Below are positions 6,630-9,417 of a DNA stretch of 64,000 bases, one piece after another. The notes under the pieces are model-generated. The model had not been told where the DNA came from. It ran no database searches and was given only the letters and a program-made list of their open reading frames with translations. Numbering within the stretch: position 1 is the first letter of the stretch; each line of letters starts with the position of its first letter. Position numbers and translations under genes: made by a program. This DNA is from Escherichia phage vB_EcoM_ESCO8: the sequence record OM386653.1; one strand, given 5' to 3'.

Positions 6630-6705
6630 TGGTCGTGGTAAACGGAGTCGAACCGTTGTTTCTCGATTATCGGTCGAGTGTACTAACCACCTGTACGATA
6701 CCACA
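6630..6705 (-). tRNA. tRNA, anticodon loop CCGATAA (possible GAU/Ile, atypical C33)
   Basis: Hand fold: 7-bp acceptor, T-loop TTCGACT, encoded CCA. Confidence 0.45.
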
Positions 6706-6710
6706 ATAAT

Positions 6711-6793
6711 TGGCAGCAAGGTGAGGAATCGAACCCCCTGATCTATGGTTTGGAGCCATATTGAGTACCATACTCTTTTAAATCTACCCGGCT
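6711..6793 (-). tRNA. tRNA-Trp(CCA)-like with atypical D region
   Basis: Canonical T-arm and anticodon arm CTCCAAA; D arm does not fold canonically. Confidence 0.35.
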
Positions 6794-6850
6794 ATGAGTT
6801 CCTTGAAGTGTCAATGTAATTTAATCATTACACCAGAAGGAGGTATTTAT

Positions 6851-6929
6851 TGGTAACGGGAGTAGGATTTGAACCTACGATCTCCAGCATATGAAACTGG
6901 CGAGGACGACCAGACTCCTCTATCCCGCG
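6851..6929 (-). tRNA. tRNA with CAU anticodon (Met or Ile-lysidine type)
   Basis: T-arm GTAGG/CCTAC, anticodon loop TTCATAT, unpaired 1-72. Confidence 0.5.
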
Positions 6930-6944
6930 AAACTTGTAATAATT

Positions 6945-7020
6945 TGGTTGATAGTAAGAGAATCGAACTCTTCTCACAATGCCTTATGAAAGCACTCGAA
7001 ACGCCAGCTTCACACTATCA
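6945..7020 (-). tRNA. tRNA, probable CAU anticodon
   Basis: Perfect 7-bp acceptor, T-loop TTCGATT, anticodon loop TTCATAA. Confidence 0.5.
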
Positions 7021-7108
7021 ATGGCTAACCCTTTACAACCCGTCTTGGCGTGGTATCCTTAACAGGACGGTGGATATCCGTTGCAAACCCTATGATATCT
7101 CTTAGATA

Positions 7109-7193
7109 TGGTAGCTAAGGTGAGACTCGAACTCACAATCCCCTGGGGCAATACGTTCTAAGCGTATCGTGTATACCATTCCACCACTTAGCC
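7109..7193 (-). tRNA. tRNA-Leu(UAG), type II
   Basis: Anticodon loop CTTAGAA; long variable arm CCCC-A-GGGG. Confidence 0.6.
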
Positions 7194-7270
7194 ATAATAA
7201 GTACACCACTGTAAGAAGCCTCAATGTGCTATTGACAGTTAACCAAGTATTCTCCTTGGATGGTGTTATT

Positions 7271-7345
7271 TGGTGCAGAGAGATGGTAACGATCCATCCT
7301 TTCTACCTTTTCAGGGTAGCACTAATCCGTCTCAGCTATCTCTGC
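7271..7345 (-). tRNA. tRNA-Phe(GAA), non-canonical T-loop
   Basis: Perfect acceptor stem; anticodon loop CTGAAAA; T-loop ATCGTTA. Confidence 0.45.
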
Positions 7346-7350
7346 AAATT

Positions 7351-7426
7351 TGGTCAGTGCGGCAGGACTCGAACCTGCGACCTGAAGCGTCCAAGGCTCC
7401 CACGCTACCAACTGCGCTACGCACTG
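7351..7426 (-). tRNA. tRNA-Pro(UGG)
   Basis: Acceptor 7 bp, T-loop TTCGAGT, anticodon loop CTTGGAC. Confidence 0.6.
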
Positions 7427-7433
7427 TAAATCT

Positions 7434-7508
7434 TGGCTGGAGATCTAGGAATCGAACCTAGTCATCACGACTTCAAAGGCCGTTGCCTTCCCACTAGGCT
7501 AATCTCCA
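7434..7508 (-). tRNA. tRNA-Gln(UUG)
   Basis: Acceptor 7 bp, T-loop TTCGATT, anticodon loop CTTTGAA. Confidence 0.6.
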
Positions 7509-7607
7509 ATAAAACTAAAAATCACTTAAAAAGAACCGCTAGAGTTTGAAGGAGAAAACCATGAGCGAAAAGAGAAATTTTCTCTAGCGATTCCATTTAA
7601 ATAATCT

Positions 7608-7682
7608 TGGAGCGAGTAACAGGACTTGAACCTGCACCTGGAGGGTGGAAACCTCATATGCTACCATTAACACTATACCCGC
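7608..7682 (-). tRNA. tRNA-Gly(UCC)
   Basis: T-loop TTCAAGT, anticodon loop TTTCCAC, G18G19 present. Confidence 0.55.
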
Positions 7683-7737
7683 TTAATAATATTACTCTAA
7701 CATATTATTAGCCCCTTTGTCAAGAGGCTTTTAATAT

Positions 7738-8061
7738 TTATTTTAAAATAGTAGATGCACCACGTCTGTTTAGATATGCAACCGTAAAGCTCAAATCACC
7801 TATTTCTTCAGGTTCCCACTGACCTTCTAAGCCATAACAAGAACAATGATATGCGTGTACTTCATAAAACAAAGATGTTTTCATATCATAGAAATAAACG
7901 TGAGATTCGCCTTCATAATATGCACAATCATAAGTGGCAGAAAGAATTACAATGTTATCCTTATCTAACTCTACTTCATAATATCTTTCAACATCTTCAA
8001 TATCATCAAAACCATCGAAAACATTGATATTAAAATATTTCTCTAACTCTTTTTCTGTCAC
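7738..8061 (-). CDS. Hypothetical Cys/His-rich protein inside tRNA array (GTG start)
   Basis: ORF track 7738..8160 trimmed because its 5' end overlaps tRNA-Thr; AAGGAG RBS before GTG. Confidence 0.45.
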   Translation of the reverse strand: MTEKELEKYFNINVFDGFDDIEDVERYYEVELDKDNIVILSATYDCAYYEGESHVYFYDMKTSLFYEVHAYHCSCYGLEGQWEPEEIGDLSFTVAYLNRRGASTILK

Positions 8062-8083
8062 ATACACTCCTTTAGAGTTAAAT

Positions 8084-8158
8084 TGGTGCTCCCACAAGGA
8101 CTCGAACCCTGATAAGTTGCTTACAAGGCAACCGTAATAGCCGTTATACGATAGGAGC
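8084..8158 (-). tRNA. tRNA-Thr(UGU)
   Basis: T-loop TTCGAGT, anticodon loop CTTGTAA. Confidence 0.6.
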
Positions 8159-8237
8159 AAAATATTTGCTTGGTAGGATTTGATACCTACAATTCTAGAA
8201 AATTCTAGAGGTTTCTATTAACTCTACAAGCACTATT

Positions 8238-8322
8238 TGGCGATGGATCAAGGATTTGAACCTTGCTAGAACTTTCGTTCACGGATTAACAGTCCGTCGC
8301 CCAACCACTAGGCCAATCCATC
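8238..8322 (-). tRNA. Type-II-like tRNA, anticodon loop CTGTTAA (GUU?)
   Basis: Perfect 7-bp acceptor, T-loop TTCAAAT, variable-arm hairpin GAAC-GAAA-GTTC. Confidence 0.45.
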
Positions 8323-8329
8323 TTTAATT

Positions 8330-8416
8330 TGGTGCAGGTAGTTGGACTCGAACCAACGAAGCCCCGAAGGGCAGGAGATTTACAGTCTCCAGCAATTGCC
8401 GCTATGCGATACCTAC
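8330..8416 (-). tRNA. tRNA-Tyr(GUA), type II
   Basis: Anticodon loop CTGTAAA; variable arm GCCC-TTCG-GGGC. Confidence 0.6.
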
Positions 8417-8421
8417 GTGTT

Positions 8422-8497
8422 TGGTACATCGTGAAGGATTCGAACCTTCGACCTTGGAGTTAAAAGCCCCTTGCTCTACCAACTAAGCTAACGATGT
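8422..8497 (-). tRNA. tRNA-Lys(UUU)
   Basis: D-arm GCTT/GAGC with GG, anticodon loop CTTTTAA, T-loop TTCGAAT. Confidence 0.6.
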
Positions 8498-8667
8498 ATA
8501 AATTATCTTTAAAATAGCCAGTGTTCGCACCACTAACTATGAGGTATCGGTAAGATGGTGGGGGCCATCTGCCGAAAGTTTACTCTATTAAAGTAAGATG
8601 GTTGCAGCCATCCTTCCAAAAAGTTACACCAAGCAACTAAGAGCAACAAGCTACATTAAAGATAACT

Positions 8668-8753
8668 TGGCGGTAGATGTAGGACTTGAACCTACACGCC
8701 GTTTCCGACGACAGTTTAGCAAACTGTCGTGGCTACCATTTCACCAATCTACC
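8668..8753 (-). tRNA. tRNA-Ser(GCU), type II
   Basis: Anticodon loop TTGCTAA; perfect acceptor. Confidence 0.6.
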
Positions 8754-8761
8754 GTTCTTAA

Positions 8762-8914
8762 TTATTCAAAACAACCGGAATCTTTTTGTTCTGCTTTTAC
8801 CATACGAATATTCTTACCATCTTCAGATTGTTGAAGATTAGAATACTCATAAACAACTTTATTATTTACAATCTTAACTCCGGTAACAACCTGTCCAATA
8901 GTTTTATAATTCAT
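8762..8914 (-). CDS. Small hypothetical protein (50 aa)
   Basis: ORF track 8762..8962 trimmed to internal ATG (MNYK) because the 5' end overlaps tRNA-Ser. Confidence 0.35.
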   Translation of the reverse strand: MNYKTIGQVVTGVKIVNNKVVYEYSNLQQSEDGKNIRMVKAEQKDSGCFE

Positions 8915-8932
8915 AAAGCTCCTAAGCGAATT

Positions 8933-9022
8933 TGGAGGAAGATAATGGAGTCGAACCATCACCGTATCGCTACAATGGGCCAGGGTTCAAACCTGGTTGC
9001 GCACCGCTGCGCCCTACCTTCC
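8933..9022 (-). tRNA. tRNA-Ser(UGA), type II
   Basis: Anticodon loop TTTGAAC, T-loop TTCGACT. Confidence 0.6.
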
Positions 9023-9085
9023 AGTTACCATACTTTAAATCTAACATAAAACTATCTTGCTTGTCAAGTAGTTTTTAAAACTTTT

Positions 9086-9167
9086 TGGCCGGGGTGACAG
9101 GATTCGAACCTGCATACTCCAATTACTCGGTTAACGCCTGATTAGAAGTCAGGTGAGATACACCCCG
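9086..9167 (-). tRNA. Atypical tRNA-like gene (UCU-type anticodon hairpin, no canonical D arm)
   Basis: Perfect 7-bp acceptor and canonical T-arm TTCGAAT; internal hairpin CCTGA-CTTCTAA-TCAGG. Confidence 0.35.
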
Positions 9168-9178
9168 TTTTCATAACG

Positions 9179-9208
9179 ACTATAACAAAAAAACTAAGTA
9201 AATGTCAA
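9179..9208 (-). promoter_or_regulatory. Sigma70-like promoter candidate for tRNA array (TTGACA-N18-TATAGT)
   Basis: Read on reverse complement; -10 ends ~12 nt upstream of the first tRNA-like gene. Confidence 0.35.
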
Positions 9209-9224
9209 GACATTTTTTAGGTGT

Positions 9225-9310
9225 TGGTGCAAGTGGAGGGATTCGAACCCTCAATCATTTAAGCGTTGCGTTTTAAGCACAATGTGTATCACCAATTCCA
9301 CCACACTTGC
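9225..9310 (-). tRNA. tRNA-Leu(UAA), type II
   Basis: Perfect acceptor, T-loop TTCGAAT, anticodon loop CTTAAAA. Confidence 0.6.
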
Positions 9311-9341
9311 ATATAGGAGATGCATAGCACCTCCTTTTAAA

Positions 9342-9417
9342 TGGTGGTTCCCCAGGGTTACAATCCCTGCCCTCGACACTTATGAGGTGTGCGCTCTCGT
9401 CAGTGAGCTATGGAACC
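9342..9417 (-). tRNA. tRNA with CAU anticodon, non-canonical T-loop
   Basis: D-arm GCTC/GAGC, anticodon loop CTCATAA, T-loop ATTGTAA. Confidence 0.45.

What the first reader, a model, noticed from the sequence alone, without database searches (positions are those of the whole stretch)
6630..9417. Array of about 18 minus-strand tRNA genes including several atypical members
Hand folding finds canonical tRNAs (Leu-UAG, Leu-UAA, Pro, Gln, Gly, Thr, Tyr, Lys, Ser-GCU, Ser-UGA, Phe, three CAU) plus oddities: an 82-nt gene with perfect acceptor and T-arm but no canonical D arm (9086-9167), an 85-nt type-II-shaped gene with a GUU-like anticodon loop (8238-8322), a Trp-like gene with aberrant D region (6711-6793) and two genes with non-TTC T-loops. 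A promoter-like TTGACA-N18-TATAGT lies just upstream of the first gene.
Basis: seen in the sequence. Interest (0 to 1): 0.5.

Follow-up and report, generated by a model that had tools for sequence, protein, structure and literature searches.

The report
Phage tRNA array with rewired tRNA-Arg
The region is a real cluster of 18 phage tRNA genes, and one "odd" member belongs to a widespread, apparently undescribed class of phage arginine tRNAs that lack the usual D hairpin and instead form a short, covariation-proven helix around the anticodon arm.

Summary
The window comes from a phi92-like coliphage (Justusliebigvirus). Positions 6630-9417 (minus strand) hold 18 tRNA-type genes: ARAGORN finds 16, Rfam adds one, and comparative analysis adds one. 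The array itself is already annotated in relatives.

The new result concerns 9086-9167. It is not a pseudogene. It belongs to a family with 116 distinct sequences from at least five phage lineages and many metagenomes, and is almost absent from 185,579 bacterial and archaeal species genomes. Members have normal acceptor, anticodon (UCU; one CCU) and T arms but no D hairpin. Instead, nucleotides 11-13 pair with 40-42, enclosing the anticodon arm. All 116 sequences keep this pairing, and two of the three pairs covary. A D-loop-like motif (UAANUGGAGUAU) follows.

In Ounavirinae it occupies exactly the slot where Sf14 carries a normal tRNA-Arg(UCU). Phages carrying it rarely have another UCU tRNA, and AGA makes up 28% of Arg codons here. 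I conclude it is a working AGA decoder with a rewired core; charging by ArgRS and the 3D fold are inferred.

The other atypical members are also conserved:
- a type-II tRNA-Asn
- a Trp-like gene with an 11-nt connector
- an 8/4 tRNA-Ser

The TTGACA-N18-TATAGT promoter precedes the rewired Arg gene, not the first gene.

The parts
9342..9417 (-). tRNA with CAU anticodon (Met or Ile2). The T loop is AUUGUAA and the D loop lacks GG. First gene of the array.
   Evidence: ARAGORN. Below the Rfam gathering score. Sequence read; fold.
9225..9310 (-). tRNA-Leu(UAA), type II
   Evidence: 57.1 bits
9179..9208 (-). Promoter-like TTGACA-N18(TG)-TATAGT, 11 of 12 matches. It ends 12 nt upstream of the rewired tRNA-Arg.
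   Evidence: sequence
9086..9167 (-). Rewired tRNA-Arg(UCU), 82 nt including the encoded CCA. It has no D hairpin.
   Evidence: Rfam 38.6 bits. Family of 116 distinct sequences with covariation.
9161..9167 (-). Rewired Arg: acceptor stem 5' strand (nt 1-7), paired with 9090-9096
   Evidence: 98.3% of cells paired; 6 of 7 pairs show double changes
9155..9157 (-). Rewired Arg: CUC (nt 11-13), the 5' strand of the D-stem-like helix
   Evidence: 11:42 is CG in 116; 12:41 is UA 93 / AU 17 / GC 6; 13:40 is CG 106 / UA 6 / GC 4; none broken
9137..9153 (-). Rewired Arg: anticodon arm (nt 15-31). The loop is CUUCUAA and the anticodon UCU lies at 9144-9146.
   Evidence: 99.4% paired; all 5 pairs show double changes
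9129..9136 (-). Rewired Arg: conserved 8-nt bulge CGUUAACC (family consensus C-R-U-U-A-A-N-N)
   Evidence: C32, U34, A36 and A37 are invariant even where the search pattern left them free
9126..9128 (-). Rewired Arg: GAG (nt 40-42), the 3' strand of the D-stem-like helix
9114..9125 (-). Rewired Arg: D-loop-like connector UAAUUGGAGUAU (nt 43-54). G48, G49, A50 and G51 are invariant.
   Evidence: Equivalence to A14, R15, G18, G19, A20 and Y48 is inferred.
9097..9113 (-). Rewired Arg: T arm GCAGG-UUCGAAU-CCUGU, identical to the T arm of the T5/BF23 tRNA-Arg
9038..9067 (-). Promoter-like TTGACA-N18-TAGATT upstream of Ser-UGA
8933..9022 (-). tRNA-Ser(UGA) with 8/4 architecture: 8-bp acceptor stem, 4-bp T stem, 5-bp D stem with a 4-nt loop, and U73
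   Evidence: ARAGORN. Its only Rfam match is to tRNA-Sec, 35.3 bits. Fold; conserved in tootiki and Sf14.
8668..8753 (-). tRNA-Ser(GCU)
8422..8497 (-). tRNA-Lys(UUU)
   Evidence: 68.9 bits
8330..8416 (-). tRNA-Tyr(GUA), type II
8238..8322 (-). tRNA-Asn(GUU) with a long extra arm (GAAC-GAAA-GUUC) and G73
   Evidence: (56.5 bits)
8084..8158 (-). tRNA-Thr(UGU)
7694..7723 (-). Promoter-like TTGACA-N18-TAGAGT upstream of Gly
7608..7682 (-). tRNA-Gly(UCC)
7434..7508 (-). tRNA-Gln(UUG)
7351..7426 (-). tRNA-Pro(UGG)
7271..7345 (-). tRNA-Phe(GAA) with T loop AUCGUUA
   Evidence: (49.2 bits). Flagged as a pseudogene in the phi92 record.
7109..7193 (-). tRNA-Leu(UAG), type II
6945..7020 (-). tRNA with CAU anticodon. 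It is absent from phi92 itself.
   Evidence: ARAGORN; below the Rfam gathering score
6851..6929 (-). tRNA with CAU anticodon, a C1-U72 mismatch and a 5-bp D stem
   Evidence: (48.9 bits)
6711..6793 (-). Trp-like tRNA(CCA): A1-U72, G73, an 11-nt connector between the acceptor and D stems, a 5-nt D loop, and encoded CCA
   Evidence: Rejected by ARAGORN and Rfam. Conserved with compensatory changes in Stephanstirmvirinae and Ounavirinae.
6630..6705 (-). tRNA-Ile(GAU), last gene of the array
9721..9750 (-). Promoter-like TTGACA-N18-TAAGAT upstream of the 88-aa ORF (9425-9691) that precedes the first tRNA

Best explanation
Positions 6630-9417 (minus strand) are the tRNA gene array of a phi92-like virulent coliphage. 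It holds 18 genes, driven by at least four TTGACA-N18 promoters, with three small ORFs interspersed.

The gene at 9086-9167 is a functional tRNA-Arg(UCU) of a non-canonical, phage-specific architecture. Its acceptor stem, T arm and anticodon arm are standard. There is no D hairpin. Instead, nt 11-13 (CUC), directly after U8-A9-U10, pair with nt 40-42 (GAG) on the far side of the anticodon arm. The D-stem equivalent therefore stacks as an extension of the anticodon helix, across a conserved 7-8-nt bulge (CRUUAANN).

The strand that follows (U-A-A-N-U-G-G-A-G-U-A-U) carries what look like the D-loop nucleotides: A14, R15, G18, G19, the A20 arginine identity base, and Y48. I infer three things. 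The rewiring keeps the L-shape and the D-loop/T-loop elbow. The host ArgRS charges the RNA. The tRNA reads AGA codons, and presumably AGG by wobble; AGA is rare in E. coli but makes up 28% of Arg codons in this phage.

What is shown: the helices, the family, its distribution, and its replacement of a canonical tRNA-Arg(UCU) at the same genomic slot. What is inferred: the tertiary fold, aminoacylation, decoding, and any selective advantage of the odd core.

The type-II Asn, the long-connector Trp and the 8/4 Ser genes are likewise conserved and presumably functional non-standard tRNAs.
For: Identity of the window:
- 98.5% identical to Escherichia phage vB_Eco_PATM, and about 98% to outra and phi92.
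- Relatives annotate 16 of the genes.

The rewired gene is a family:
- 82-86% identical copies occur in Felixounavirus, Vequintavirinae, Klebsiella Roth37, Sugarland and Iguana, and jumbo phages 121Q and fEgEco12.
- Pattern scans gave 45-72 IMG/VR stretches each and 104 metagenome stretches.
- Only 3 MAG contigs turned up among 185,579 species genomes.

Structure:
- On 100 distinct sequences, 98.9% of cells are paired against 70% in shuffles. All variable pairs top the mutual-information ranking.
- On 116 sequences, 11:42 is CG in all. 12:41 is UA 93, AU 17, GC 6. 13:40 is CG 106, UA 6, GC 4. No pair is broken. 14:39 pairs in 15 sequences.
- G48, G49, A50, G51, U8, A9, A44 and A45 are invariant even where the anchoring pattern left them free.

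Function:
- The anticodon is UCU in all but one member, which has CCU. U33 and A37 are kept, and the discriminator is G or A.
- Of 173 loci holding the element, only 3 also have a normal-length Arg-UCU gene. 25 have a canonical Arg-ACG gene. Arrays reach 28 tRNAs.
- Felixounavirus tootiki carries the rewired gene in the slot Ile-GAU / X / Ser-UGA / Leu-UAG / Lys-CUU / Ala. Mooglevirus Sf14 carries a canonical 77-nt tRNA-Arg(UCU) in that slot.
- The acceptor 5' strand and T arm are identical to the T5/BF23 tRNA-Arg(UCU), with one difference in the 3' strand.
- AGA is 27.8% of Arg codons in the window, against 5.1% in E. coli O157 (PMC3606486).
- The Felix O1 genome paper noted that a tRNA for the over-represented AGA codon was expected but not found (PMC3185647).
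- A near-consensus promoter ends 12 nt upstream, and CCA is encoded.
Against: - There are no expression, processing or aminoacylation data for any family member.
- ARAGORN does not call the window's copy, and Rfam scores it only 38.6 bits.
- The main ArgRS identity base, A20, normally sits in a D loop. Here its equivalence to A50 is positional inference only.
- The 11:42 pair never varies, so the helix rests on two covarying pairs, though these show three pair types each in several lineages.
- RNAalifold and single-sequence MFE folding prefer a local hairpin. That hairpin is contradicted only by the rarer variants.
- Part of the apparent invariance was imposed by the search patterns.
- An RNA with a conserved anticodon loop could also be a decoy rather than an adaptor.
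- My literature search was limited to open-access full text, so prior description cannot be excluded.
Confidence: 0.75

Rival explanations
1. The atypical genes (9086-9167, 6711-6793 and perhaps 8238-8322) are decaying tRNA pseudogenes, and only the canonical members function.
For: ARAGORN misses 9086-9167 and 6711-6793. Rfam rejects 6711-6793, and its fold is no better than shuffles (z +0.24). The phi92 record marks Phe and Ser-UGA as pseudogenes. The window's Trp-like copy has C4-U69 and G49-A65 mismatches.
Against: Pseudogenes do not keep their stems through compensatory changes across phage subfamilies and environments. The Arg family is 98.9% paired with 541 double-change cells. The Trp-like gene is 94.6% paired, with 6 pairs changed on both sides. 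The Asn extra arm covaries with up to 5 pair types per position. Unpaired motifs are more conserved than the stems.
Confidence: 0.03
2. The rewired Arg-like RNA is not a translational adaptor. It is a tRNA mimic, for example a decoy or inhibitor for a host tRNA-targeting enzyme (an anticodon nuclease acting on tRNA-Arg, such as colicin D-like toxins, or a defence effector), or a regulator that uses the tRNA-Arg anticodon loop as bait.
For: The strictly conserved anticodon loop and the unusual, highly conserved non-helical segments would also suit a protein-binding decoy. Phage tRNAs have been proposed to counter host tRNA nucleases including colicin D (PMC10264068). Three loci carry a normal Arg-UCU gene as well.
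Against: It replaces the canonical tRNA-Arg(UCU) at a syntenic slot and is usually the only UCU tRNA in AGA-rich phages. It keeps every feature needed for RNase P, CCA, EF-Tu and ribosome use: a 7/5 acceptor-T branch, a UUCRA T loop, a G/A73 discriminator, U33 and A37. A decoy would not need a discriminator typical of tRNA-Arg or an intact 3' end.
Confidence: 0.12
3. The RNA is a working tRNA-Arg, and the reason for the rewired core is escape from host immunity or host control, not codon supply alone. The same may hold for the extra arm on Asn, the 8/4 Ser, and the elbow-less CAU tRNA. A changed D region would make the phage tRNA invisible to host enzymes that recognise the D arm or the overall core of tRNA-Arg(UCU), while still fitting ArgRS, EF-Tu and the ribosome.
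For: Canonical tRNA-Arg(ACG) genes sit beside the rewired UCU gene in 25 loci, so the odd architecture is isoacceptor-specific. Several different non-standard architectures accumulate in one array. The published hypothesis of nuclease-evading phage tRNAs is in PMC10264068.
Against: I know of no host factor that targets the D arm of tRNA-Arg(UCU). T5, T4 and Sf14 manage with canonical versions. The architecture could be a neutral frozen accident that spread by horizontal transfer of tRNA genes. This explanation addresses why the core is odd and is compatible with the best explanation rather than excluding it.
Confidence: 0.2
4. The family folds as single-sequence prediction suggests: a D-arm-less cloverleaf with a short hairpin in a 23-nt variable region (38-41 with 46-49, GNRA-like loop), and no pairing between nt 11-13 and 40-42.
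For: This is the MFE and centroid fold of the window copy. RNAalifold on 100 sequences chooses 38-40:47-49. One-sided C/U and U/C changes opposite G are compatible with it.
Against: Pair 41:46 is unpaired in 44% of sequences, and no pair changes on both sides beyond 2 cells. In the 16 variants where 39 or 40 change, they change to match 14 or 13 and break 48 or 47: 39:48 gives GG 9 and AG 3, 40:47 gives CU 4 and AC 1, and 38:49 gives AG 6. The perfect three-type covariation at 12:41 and 13:40 has no explanation in this fold.
Confidence: 0.02

Closest known systems
Canonical phage tRNA-Arg(UCU), e.g. T5/BF23 tRNA-Arg (AGA reader) and Shigella phage Sf14 tRNA-Arg(TCT)
   Same: Same anticodon loop CUUCUAA. 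The discriminator is G73 in the window copy, T5/BF23 and Sf14. The window copy has the same acceptor 5' strand and T arm as T5/BF23 (one difference in the 3' strand). It has the same position in the Ounavirinae array as the Sf14 gene, and the same presumed role of supplying an AGA decoder to an AT-rich phage.
   Different: The canonical genes have a normal D hairpin (e.g. Sf14 GUUC-AAACGGAUA-GAGC) and a 5-nt variable loop. The rewired family has neither. Its D-stem strands flank the anticodon arm, and its D-loop-like motif lies where the variable loop should be.
[quoted passage not shown]
   Same: Neither has a D hairpin. In both, the connector after the acceptor stem is thought to pair with nucleotides 3' of the anticodon stem and so lengthen the anticodon helix (from my own knowledge of the published models). 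Both read AGR/AGN codons, some with the same UCU anticodon. The reviews PMC7609411 and PMC4013460 treat such tRNAs as a mitochondrial peculiarity.
   Different: The phage family keeps a canonical 7/5 acceptor-T branch, a UUCRA T loop and a GG motif, so the elbow is probably intact. It is 79 nt long rather than miniaturised. It carries a conserved 8-nt bulge, is an Arg rather than a Ser type, and works with an unmodified bacterial translation apparatus rather than co-evolved mitochondrial factors.
(8/4) and (9/3) non-canonical bacterial and phage tRNAs (Mukai et al. 2017, PMC5389517)
   Same: These are non-standard cloverleaves found in phage tRNA clusters. The Ser(UGA) gene of this very array (8933-9022) is of the 8/4 kind.
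   Different: Those tRNAs change how the 12 bp of the acceptor-T branch are divided and keep a D hairpin. The paper reports no tRNA-Arg or tRNA-Asn case.
Permuted tRNA genes of Cyanidioschyzon merolae and other algae (from my own knowledge)
   Same: The order of tRNA segments along the gene differs from the canonical order.
   Different: There, whole 3' and 5' halves are swapped in the gene. A circular intermediate restores a canonical mature tRNA. Here the termini are in normal order, and the mature RNA itself must carry the rearranged core.
Type II (long variable arm) tRNAs: Leu, Ser, Tyr and Sec in bacteria
   Same: The Asn(GUU) gene at 8238-8322 has a 3-bp D stem and a base-paired extra arm like class II tRNAs.
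   Different: From my own knowledge, Asn is not a class II isotype in any cellular system. The arm is short (4 bp plus a GAAA loop), starts directly after position 43, and is followed by 3 unpaired nucleotides.

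Membership tests
tRNA (Rfam RF00005; canonical cloverleaf), for 9086-9167 | 7-bp acceptor stem, discriminator, 3' CCA | tested here: met
   CGGGGUG/CACCCCG, G73, encoded CCA. 98.3% of cells paired, and 6 of 7 pairs covary across the family.
tRNA (Rfam RF00005; canonical cloverleaf), for 9086-9167 | 5-bp T stem with a 7-nt T loop U54-U55-C56-R57-A58 | tested here: met
   GCAGG-UUCGAAU-CCUGU. T60, T61, C62 and A64 are invariant in 100 sequences.
tRNA (Rfam RF00005; canonical cloverleaf), for 9086-9167 | 5-bp anticodon stem with a 7-nt loop carrying U33 and a purine at 37 | tested here: met
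   CCUGA-CUUCUAA-UCAGG. All 5 pairs covary.
tRNA (Rfam RF00005; canonical cloverleaf), for 9086-9167 | D hairpin (stem 10-13/22-25 closing a D loop) between position 9 and the anticodon stem | tested here: not met
   Only 7 nt (UAUCUCA) separate the acceptor and anticodon stems. The Rfam alignment deletes the D arm. nt 11-13 pair instead with 40-42, beyond the anticodon arm.
tRNA (Rfam RF00005; canonical cloverleaf), for 9086-9167 | Score at or above the curated gathering threshold (29 bits) | tested here: met
   38.6 bits, E 1.4e-4 for the whole window. ARAGORN does not report it.
tRNA-Arg (substrate of bacterial ArgRS; E. coli identity set, from my own knowledge: C35, U/G36, A/G73, A20) | Anticodon with C35 and U36 or G36 | tested here: met
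   UCU in the window and in all but one of the distinct family members; the exception has CCU.
tRNA-Arg (substrate of bacterial ArgRS) | Discriminator A73 or G73 | tested here: met
   G in the window. Across the family: G 64, A 38, U 4, C 2.
tRNA-Arg (substrate of bacterial ArgRS) | A20 in the D loop | tested here: inconclusive
   An invariant A (nt 50) follows the invariant GG (nt 48-49), as A20 follows G18-G19. It lies in a connector rather than a D loop, so equivalence is inferred.
tRNA-Arg (substrate of bacterial ArgRS) | Aminoacylation with arginine | not testable with these tools
   Needs in vitro charging or analysis of RNA from infected cells.
D-arm-lacking mitochondrial tRNA-Ser(AGY/N) | No D hairpin; the connector pairs with the region 3' of the anticodon stem | tested here: met
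   Helix 11-13:40-42 encloses the anticodon arm.
D-arm-lacking mitochondrial tRNA-Ser(AGY/N) | Organellar origin, reduced size, loss of conserved G18-G19 and T-loop motifs, Ser identity | tested here: not met
   Phage-borne, 79 nt before the CCA, GG and UUCRA conserved, Arg-type anticodon.
Permuted tRNA gene (processed to a canonical tRNA) | The 3' half is encoded upstream of the 5' half, with the acceptor termini internal to the gene | tested here: not met
   The acceptor 5' and 3' strands are at the two ends of the gene and covary.
Type II tRNA, for 8238-8322 | Base-paired extra arm between the anticodon and T stems | tested here: met
   4-bp stem plus GAAA loop. In 32 distinct phage sequences, 30-32 keep each pair, and the three inner pairs show 5 or more pair types.
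Type II tRNA, for 8238-8322 | Isotype is Leu, Ser, Tyr or Sec | tested here: not met
   The anticodon is GUU. The anticodon arm ACGGA-CUGUUAA-UCCGU and G73 are of Asn type. ARAGORN and GenBank records call it tRNA-Asn.
(8/4) tRNA-Ser (Mukai et al. 2017), for 8933-9022 | 8-bp acceptor stem with a 4-bp T stem, a long extra arm and a Ser anticodon | tested here: met
   Fold. The A3-U to U3-A swap and the 4-bp T stem are conserved in tootiki and Sf14. The best Rfam match is tRNA-Sec, 35.3 bits, below that family's gathering score of 47. The class is reported in bacteriophages.

The most novel reading that the evidence does not exclude
The rewired tRNA-Arg(UCU) is a fully functional adaptor whose core is a topological isomer of the tRNA fold. 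The two D-stem strands are swapped in connectivity around the anticodon arm, and the D loop is moved to the variable-loop position, yet the RNA still forms the L-shape and elbow. That would make it the first tRNA class without a D hairpin outside organelles. It would be used by many unrelated phages with the unmodified bacterial ArgRS, EF-Tu and ribosome. The architecture may be maintained because it escapes a host factor that acts on canonical tRNA-Arg(UCU).
Probability: 0.4. Interest if true: 0.85.

Novelty: new variant of a known kind. Interest (0 to 1): 0.72.

Why it matters
**tRNA biology.** tRNAs without a D hairpin are treated in reviews as a peculiarity of animal mitochondria, where the translation factors co-evolved with them (PMC7609411, PMC4013460, PMC1636415). 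If a D-hairpin-less tRNA works with the ordinary bacterial machinery, the cloverleaf is less obligatory than assumed. It would also give a natural, sequence-rich test case (more than 100 variants) for what the tRNA core really has to provide.

**Annotation.** The gene is missed or mislabelled in most deposited genomes of Felix O1-, rV5-, phi92-, Sugarland- and 121Q-like phages. It appears as none, tRNA-OTHER, tRNA-Met, tRNA-Leu or hypothetical protein. This explains the "missing" AGA tRNA noted for Felix O1, and it affects codon-adaptation analyses of therapeutic phages.

**Engineering.** A compact, structurally distinct tRNA scaffold accepted by E. coli could be useful as an orthogonal or nuclease-resistant tRNA.

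**Wider pattern.** The same array shows that phages maintain several other non-standard tRNA designs: a type-II Asn, a long-connector Trp and an 8/4 Ser. Phage tRNA clusters therefore look like a reservoir of tRNA structural innovation.

Tried and rejected
**Alternative folds of the Arg element**
- Single-sequence folding gave a variable-region hairpin. Covariation rejected it.
- Pairing of CUC with the second GAG (nt 49-51) breaks in every variant.
- A D stem enclosing an inserted hairpin, with a downstream anticodon arm, fails because no complementary stem exists (read).
- RNAalifold did not recover the 11-13:40-42 helix, because two of its three pairs are nearly invariant in that sample. 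The decisive variants came only after I loosened the search pattern.

**Looking for more signal**
- Mutual information among unpaired columns showed no tertiary covariation.
- A scan for rewired tRNAs with other anticodons, anchored only on the 3' motif, found only UCU and one CCU.
- A scan of 185,579 species genomes for a cellular origin found only 3 MAG contigs.

**Literature**
- Ten searches covered D-arm-less, non-canonical or permuted phage tRNAs, a type-II tRNA-Asn, and the sequence motif itself. None gave a description.
- I suspected that the Sf14 'Arg_TCT' gene (PMC12482277) was the same element. It is a canonical 77-nt gene, and this became evidence for functional replacement.

**Left unresolved**
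- I could not assign the three CAU genes to initiator Met, elongator Met or Ile2 from sequence alone. None has the initiator's three G-C pairs. ATA is 17% of Ile codons, so an Ile2 role for one of them is plausible but untested.
- I did not build a covariance model, because only sequences already fetched by patterns could have been searched.

Full report
**1. What is there**

ARAGORN reports 16 tRNA genes, all on the minus strand, between 6630 and 9417. Rfam's tRNA model passes its gathering score for 14 loci.
- It adds 9089-9167 (38.6 bits), which ARAGORN misses.
- It misses two CAU genes (6945-7020 and 9342-9417).
- It also misses Ser-UGA (8933-9022), which matches only the tRNA-Sec model at 35.3 bits.
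- Neither program accepts 6711-6793.

The whole stretch is 98.5% identical to Escherichia phage vB_Eco_PATM and about 98% identical to outra, Paula and phi92 (Stephanstirmvirinae, Justusliebigvirus). The records for outra and phi92 annotate 16 of the genes but neither 9086-9167 nor 6711-6793. So the array is real, far beyond chance, and already known as an annotated feature of this phage group.

Four minus-strand sites with a perfect TTGACA, an 18-nt spacer and a TG-extended -10 lie at 9750-9721, 9208-9179, 9067-9038 and 7723-7694. It precedes the gene at 9167, not the first gene. Three small ORFs are interspersed in the array and a fourth lies just downstream of it.

**2. The gene at 9086-9167 is a member of a large family**

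The sequence reads CGGGGUG UAUCUCA CCUGA-CUUCUAA-UCAGG CGUUAACCGAGUAAUUGGAGUAU GCAGG-UUCGAAU-CCUGU CACCCCG G CCA. The acceptor stem, anticodon arm (UCU, Arg) and T arm are perfect. Seven nucleotides stand where a D arm should be.

A sensitive BLAST found the whole 82 nt at 82-86% identity in several groups:
- Felixounavirus (tootiki, Alf5, ST11)
- Vequintavirinae (UPEC06)
- Klebsiella phages Roth37, Sugarland, Iguana and KpS8
- jumbo phages fEgEco12 and 121Q

In those records it is unannotated, or called tRNA-OTHER, tRNA-Met, tRNA-Leu or hypothetical protein. Its acceptor 5' strand and T arm are identical to those of the canonical T5/BF23 tRNA-Arg, which reads AGA; the acceptor 3' strand differs at one position.

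I ran pattern scans anchored on different halves of the molecule:
- IMG/VR: 45, 62, 51 and 72 stretches.
- JGI/ENA metagenomes from freshwater, marine, soil and digester samples: 104 stretches.
- One genome for each of 185,579 bacterial and archaeal species: only 3 contigs, all from MAGs.

Dereplication gives 116 distinct 79-nt sequences. The family is therefore phage-borne, widespread and diverse.

**3. How it folds**

The helical stems differ freely between members and always compensate. On 100 distinct sequences, my proposed structure has 98.9% of cells paired. Shuffled controls give 70%, and controls with partners slid by one to three columns give 35-46%. There are 541 cells changed on both sides. 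The 16 variable pairs of this structure are the 16 highest mutual-information column pairs.

The key element is a three-pair helix between nt 11-13 (CUC) and nt 40-42 (GAG). These lie on either side of the anticodon arm. In 116 sequences:
- 11:42 is C-G in all.
- 12:41 is U-A 93, A-U 17, G-C 6.
- 13:40 is C-G 106, U-A 6, G-C 4.
- There is not a single mismatch.
- 14:39, normally A opposite C, becomes C-G, A-U or U-G in 15 sequences.

Two rival pairings were tested and fail:
- The hairpin 38-41:46-49, preferred by MFE folding and RNAalifold, has 44% non-pairs at its inner position and no covariation. It is broken exactly in the variants where 39 or 40 change to match 14 or 13.
- Pairing of CUC with the second GAG (49-51) breaks in all 23 variants.

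The unpaired segments are more conserved than the stems. U8, A9, C32, U34, A36, A37, U43, A44, A45, G48, G49, A50, G51, U52, A53 and U54 are invariant. Each was left free in at least one anchoring pattern. Invariance at a position fixed by a given pattern says nothing for that scan.

**4. Structural reading (inferred)**

The first strand (11-13) runs from the junction towards the anticodon stem and is followed by one nucleotide and the anticodon stem. That is the geometry of canonical positions 22/23-25, then 26, then 27.

The second strand (40-42) runs away from the anticodon stem. It is followed by U-A-A-N-U-G-G-A, which matches the D-loop consensus A14-R15-N16-Y17-G18-G19-A20. Four nucleotides later comes U54, directly before the T stem. 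That is where Y48, the Levitt partner of R15, sits.

In effect, the order [D 5' strand + D loop][D 3' strand + 26 + anticodon arm + variable loop] has been swapped. The three re-linked joints (9 to 22, 47 to 10, 21 to 48) join nucleotides that are neighbours in the canonical tRNA core. This last point comes from my own knowledge of tRNA tertiary structure and is not computed here.

This would preserve three things: the coaxial D-stem/anticodon-stem stack, the G18-G19/T-loop elbow, and A20, the main ArgRS identity base in E. coli (also from my own knowledge). The conserved 8-nt bulge CRUUAANN may replace the variable-loop nucleotides that normally fill the D-stem groove. None of this tertiary model is tested.

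**5. What it does**

Evidence for a working AGA decoder:
- The anticodon is UCU in every distinct member but one, which has CCU. Both are Arg AGR readers. U33 and A37 are kept, and the discriminator is G or A.
- Of 173 loci that hold the element, ARAGORN finds a normal-length tRNA-Arg(UCU) in only 3. Canonical tRNA-Arg(ACG) genes occur in 25. The element sits in arrays of up to 28 tRNAs.
- In Ounavirinae the gene order Ile-GAU / X / Ser-UGA / Leu-UAG / Lys-CUU / Ala / Gly / Thr / Val is conserved. X is the rewired 82-nt gene in Felixounavirus tootiki and a canonical 77-nt tRNA-Arg(UCU) in Mooglevirus Sf14.
- AGA makes up 27.8% of Arg codons in the window's ORFs, against 5.1% in E. coli O157:H7 (PMC3606486).
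- The Felix O1 genome paper remarked that a tRNA for the over-represented AGA codon was expected but not detected (PMC3185647). This gene is the likely answer.
- In the window it has its own near-consensus promoter ending 12 nt upstream, and an encoded CCA.

Expression, arginylation and decoding remain unshown. A decoy function remains possible, and I rate it at about 0.12. Why the core is rewired is open. It could be escape from a host factor that recognises canonical tRNA-Arg(UCU). The isoacceptor specificity and the published nuclease-evasion idea (PMC10264068) point that way. It could equally be a neutral variant spread by gene transfer.

**6. The other atypical members**

*Asn(GUU), 8238-8322.* It has a 3-bp D stem and an extra arm GAAC-GAAA-GUUC. 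The same design occurs in Justusliebigvirus, Phapecoctavirus, Seunavirus, a Proteus Demerecviridae phage, and IMG/VR contigs of T4-like, T5-like and jumbo size. Across 32 distinct sequences the extra-arm pairs show up to five pair types each, and G73 is almost always kept. Felixounavirus has a normal type-I Asn. Its anticodon arm closely resembles that of the host tRNA-Asn (from my own knowledge), so AsnRS charging is likely. SerRS mischarging cannot be excluded here.

*Trp-like, 6711-6793.* It reads AGCCGGG UAGAUUUAAAA GAGU-AUGGU-ACUC AA UAUGG-CUCCAAA-CCAUA GAUCA GGGGG-UUCGAUU-CCUCA CCUUGCU G CCA. It has the A1-U72 and G73 typical of bacterial tRNA-Trp (from my own knowledge), an 11-nt connector instead of 2 nt, and a 5-nt D loop. 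Homologues occur in Klebsiella phage KP13-26 and in Ounavirinae (Hafnia phage SarahDanielle, LPML1, and an IMG/VR contig). They keep all four stems, with changes on both sides at six pairs (94.6% paired). The sample has only seven sequences from about three lineages, so this is moderate evidence.

*Ser(UGA), 8933-9022.* It has an 8-bp acceptor stem, a 4-bp T stem, and a 5-bp D stem with a 4-nt loop. It is conserved in tootiki and Sf14. This is the (8/4) tRNA-Ser class already reported from bacteriophages (PMC5389517).

*Met-CAU 9342-9417 and Phe 7271-7345.* The CAU gene lacks both the D-loop GG and the T-loop UUC. The Phe gene has T loop AUCGUUA.

**7. Comparison with what is known, and novelty**

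The array is known and annotated. I found no description of the rewired Arg architecture in ten full-text searches, including a search for the motif itself.
- The 2020 review of non-canonical tRNAs contains no phage case and treats D-arm loss as mitochondrial (PMC7609411).
- The 2017 survey of novel cloverleaves has no Arg or Asn case.
- The closest structural analogue is the D-arm-less mitochondrial tRNA-Ser(AGY/N). It shares the lack of a D hairpin, the lengthened anticodon helix and the reading of AGN codons. It differs in size, elbow motifs, identity and genetic system.

I file the gene as a tRNA, and as Arg by anticodon, discriminator and synteny, but one that fails the cloverleaf's D-hairpin criterion. 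That makes it a new variant of a known kind. The literature search covered only open-access text, so prior mention cannot be ruled out. rV5's published "ArgAGA" tRNA may be this gene, called by tRNAscan without comment; I did not check that.

**8. Verdict**

- The secondary-structure claim stands at about 0.95.
- The claim of a functional tRNA-Arg stands at about 0.75.
- The fold-mimicry claim stands at about 0.5.
- The immune-evasion idea stands at about 0.2.

Noticed in passing
window 8159-8237 (minus strand): The 79-nt spacer between Asn and Thr folds into a cloverleaf-like shape. It has a 6-bp closing stem and a T-arm-like hairpin GUAGG-UAUCAAAU-CCUAC that resembles the Ser-GCU T arm (z -2.68). 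It could be a tRNA relic or another unrecognised tRNA-like RNA. Neither ARAGORN nor Rfam matches it.
   Followed up: partly
window 7509-7607 (minus strand): The spacer between Gly and Gln forms a long imperfect hairpin of about 23 closing pairs (-27.3 kcal/mol, z -4.13). At the same place, phi92 carries an extra small ORF annotated as rIII-like. This may be a hot spot for insertion and deletion, or a processing or termination structure.
   Followed up: partly
window 6851-7020 and 9342-9417: There are three CAU-anticodon genes of very different build. One has C1-U72 and a 5-bp D stem. One is absent from phi92. One lacks the elbow motifs. ATA is 17% of Ile codons in the window, so one of them may be a lysidine-dependent tRNA-Ile2. 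I could not assign them.
   Followed up: partly
L006 1547-1945, L003 1591-2100, L010 1598-1945: An HNH homing-endonuclease gene lies immediately downstream of the rewired tRNA-Arg in Felixounavirus and Klebsiella phage Roth37, and overlaps its 3' end in tootiki. This hints that the gene travels with, or is a target of, mobile endonucleases.
   Followed up: no
L080 10443-10536: In one IMG/VR member, 7 nt on each side of the rewired tRNA (UCAGAGC / GCUCUGA) are complementary, extending the acceptor stem to 14 bp. There is no encoded CCA. ARAGORN reads this and three other members as 94-98-nt 'tRNA-Arg(tct)' genes.
   Followed up: no
L138 about 6452-6540: One metagenome member of the rewired family has intact 5' parts, but its sequence diverges inside the T arm. 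This could be an insertion, an intron or a truncation.
   Followed up: no
GenBank MG065689, MG065656, MG065645 and OK283618 (L191): Records named 'Campylobacter phage' are 96-100% identical to this E. coli phi92-like array. A 'Listeria phage LPML1' is an Ounavirinae genome with an enterobacterial-type tRNA array. The host labels look wrong.
   Followed up: no
window 9425-9691, 8762-8914, 7738-8061, 6246-6515 (minus strand): Small conserved ORFs of unknown function lie between the tRNA genes or, for the last, just downstream of the array. They are homologues of Phi92_gp110, gp111, gp112 and gp114. The first lies between a promoter-like site and the first tRNA.
   Followed up: no
L031, L077, L176: Three loci carry both the rewired tRNA-Arg(UCU) and a normal-length ARAGORN tRNA-Arg(tct). 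These would be useful for testing whether the two forms are redundant.
   Followed up: no
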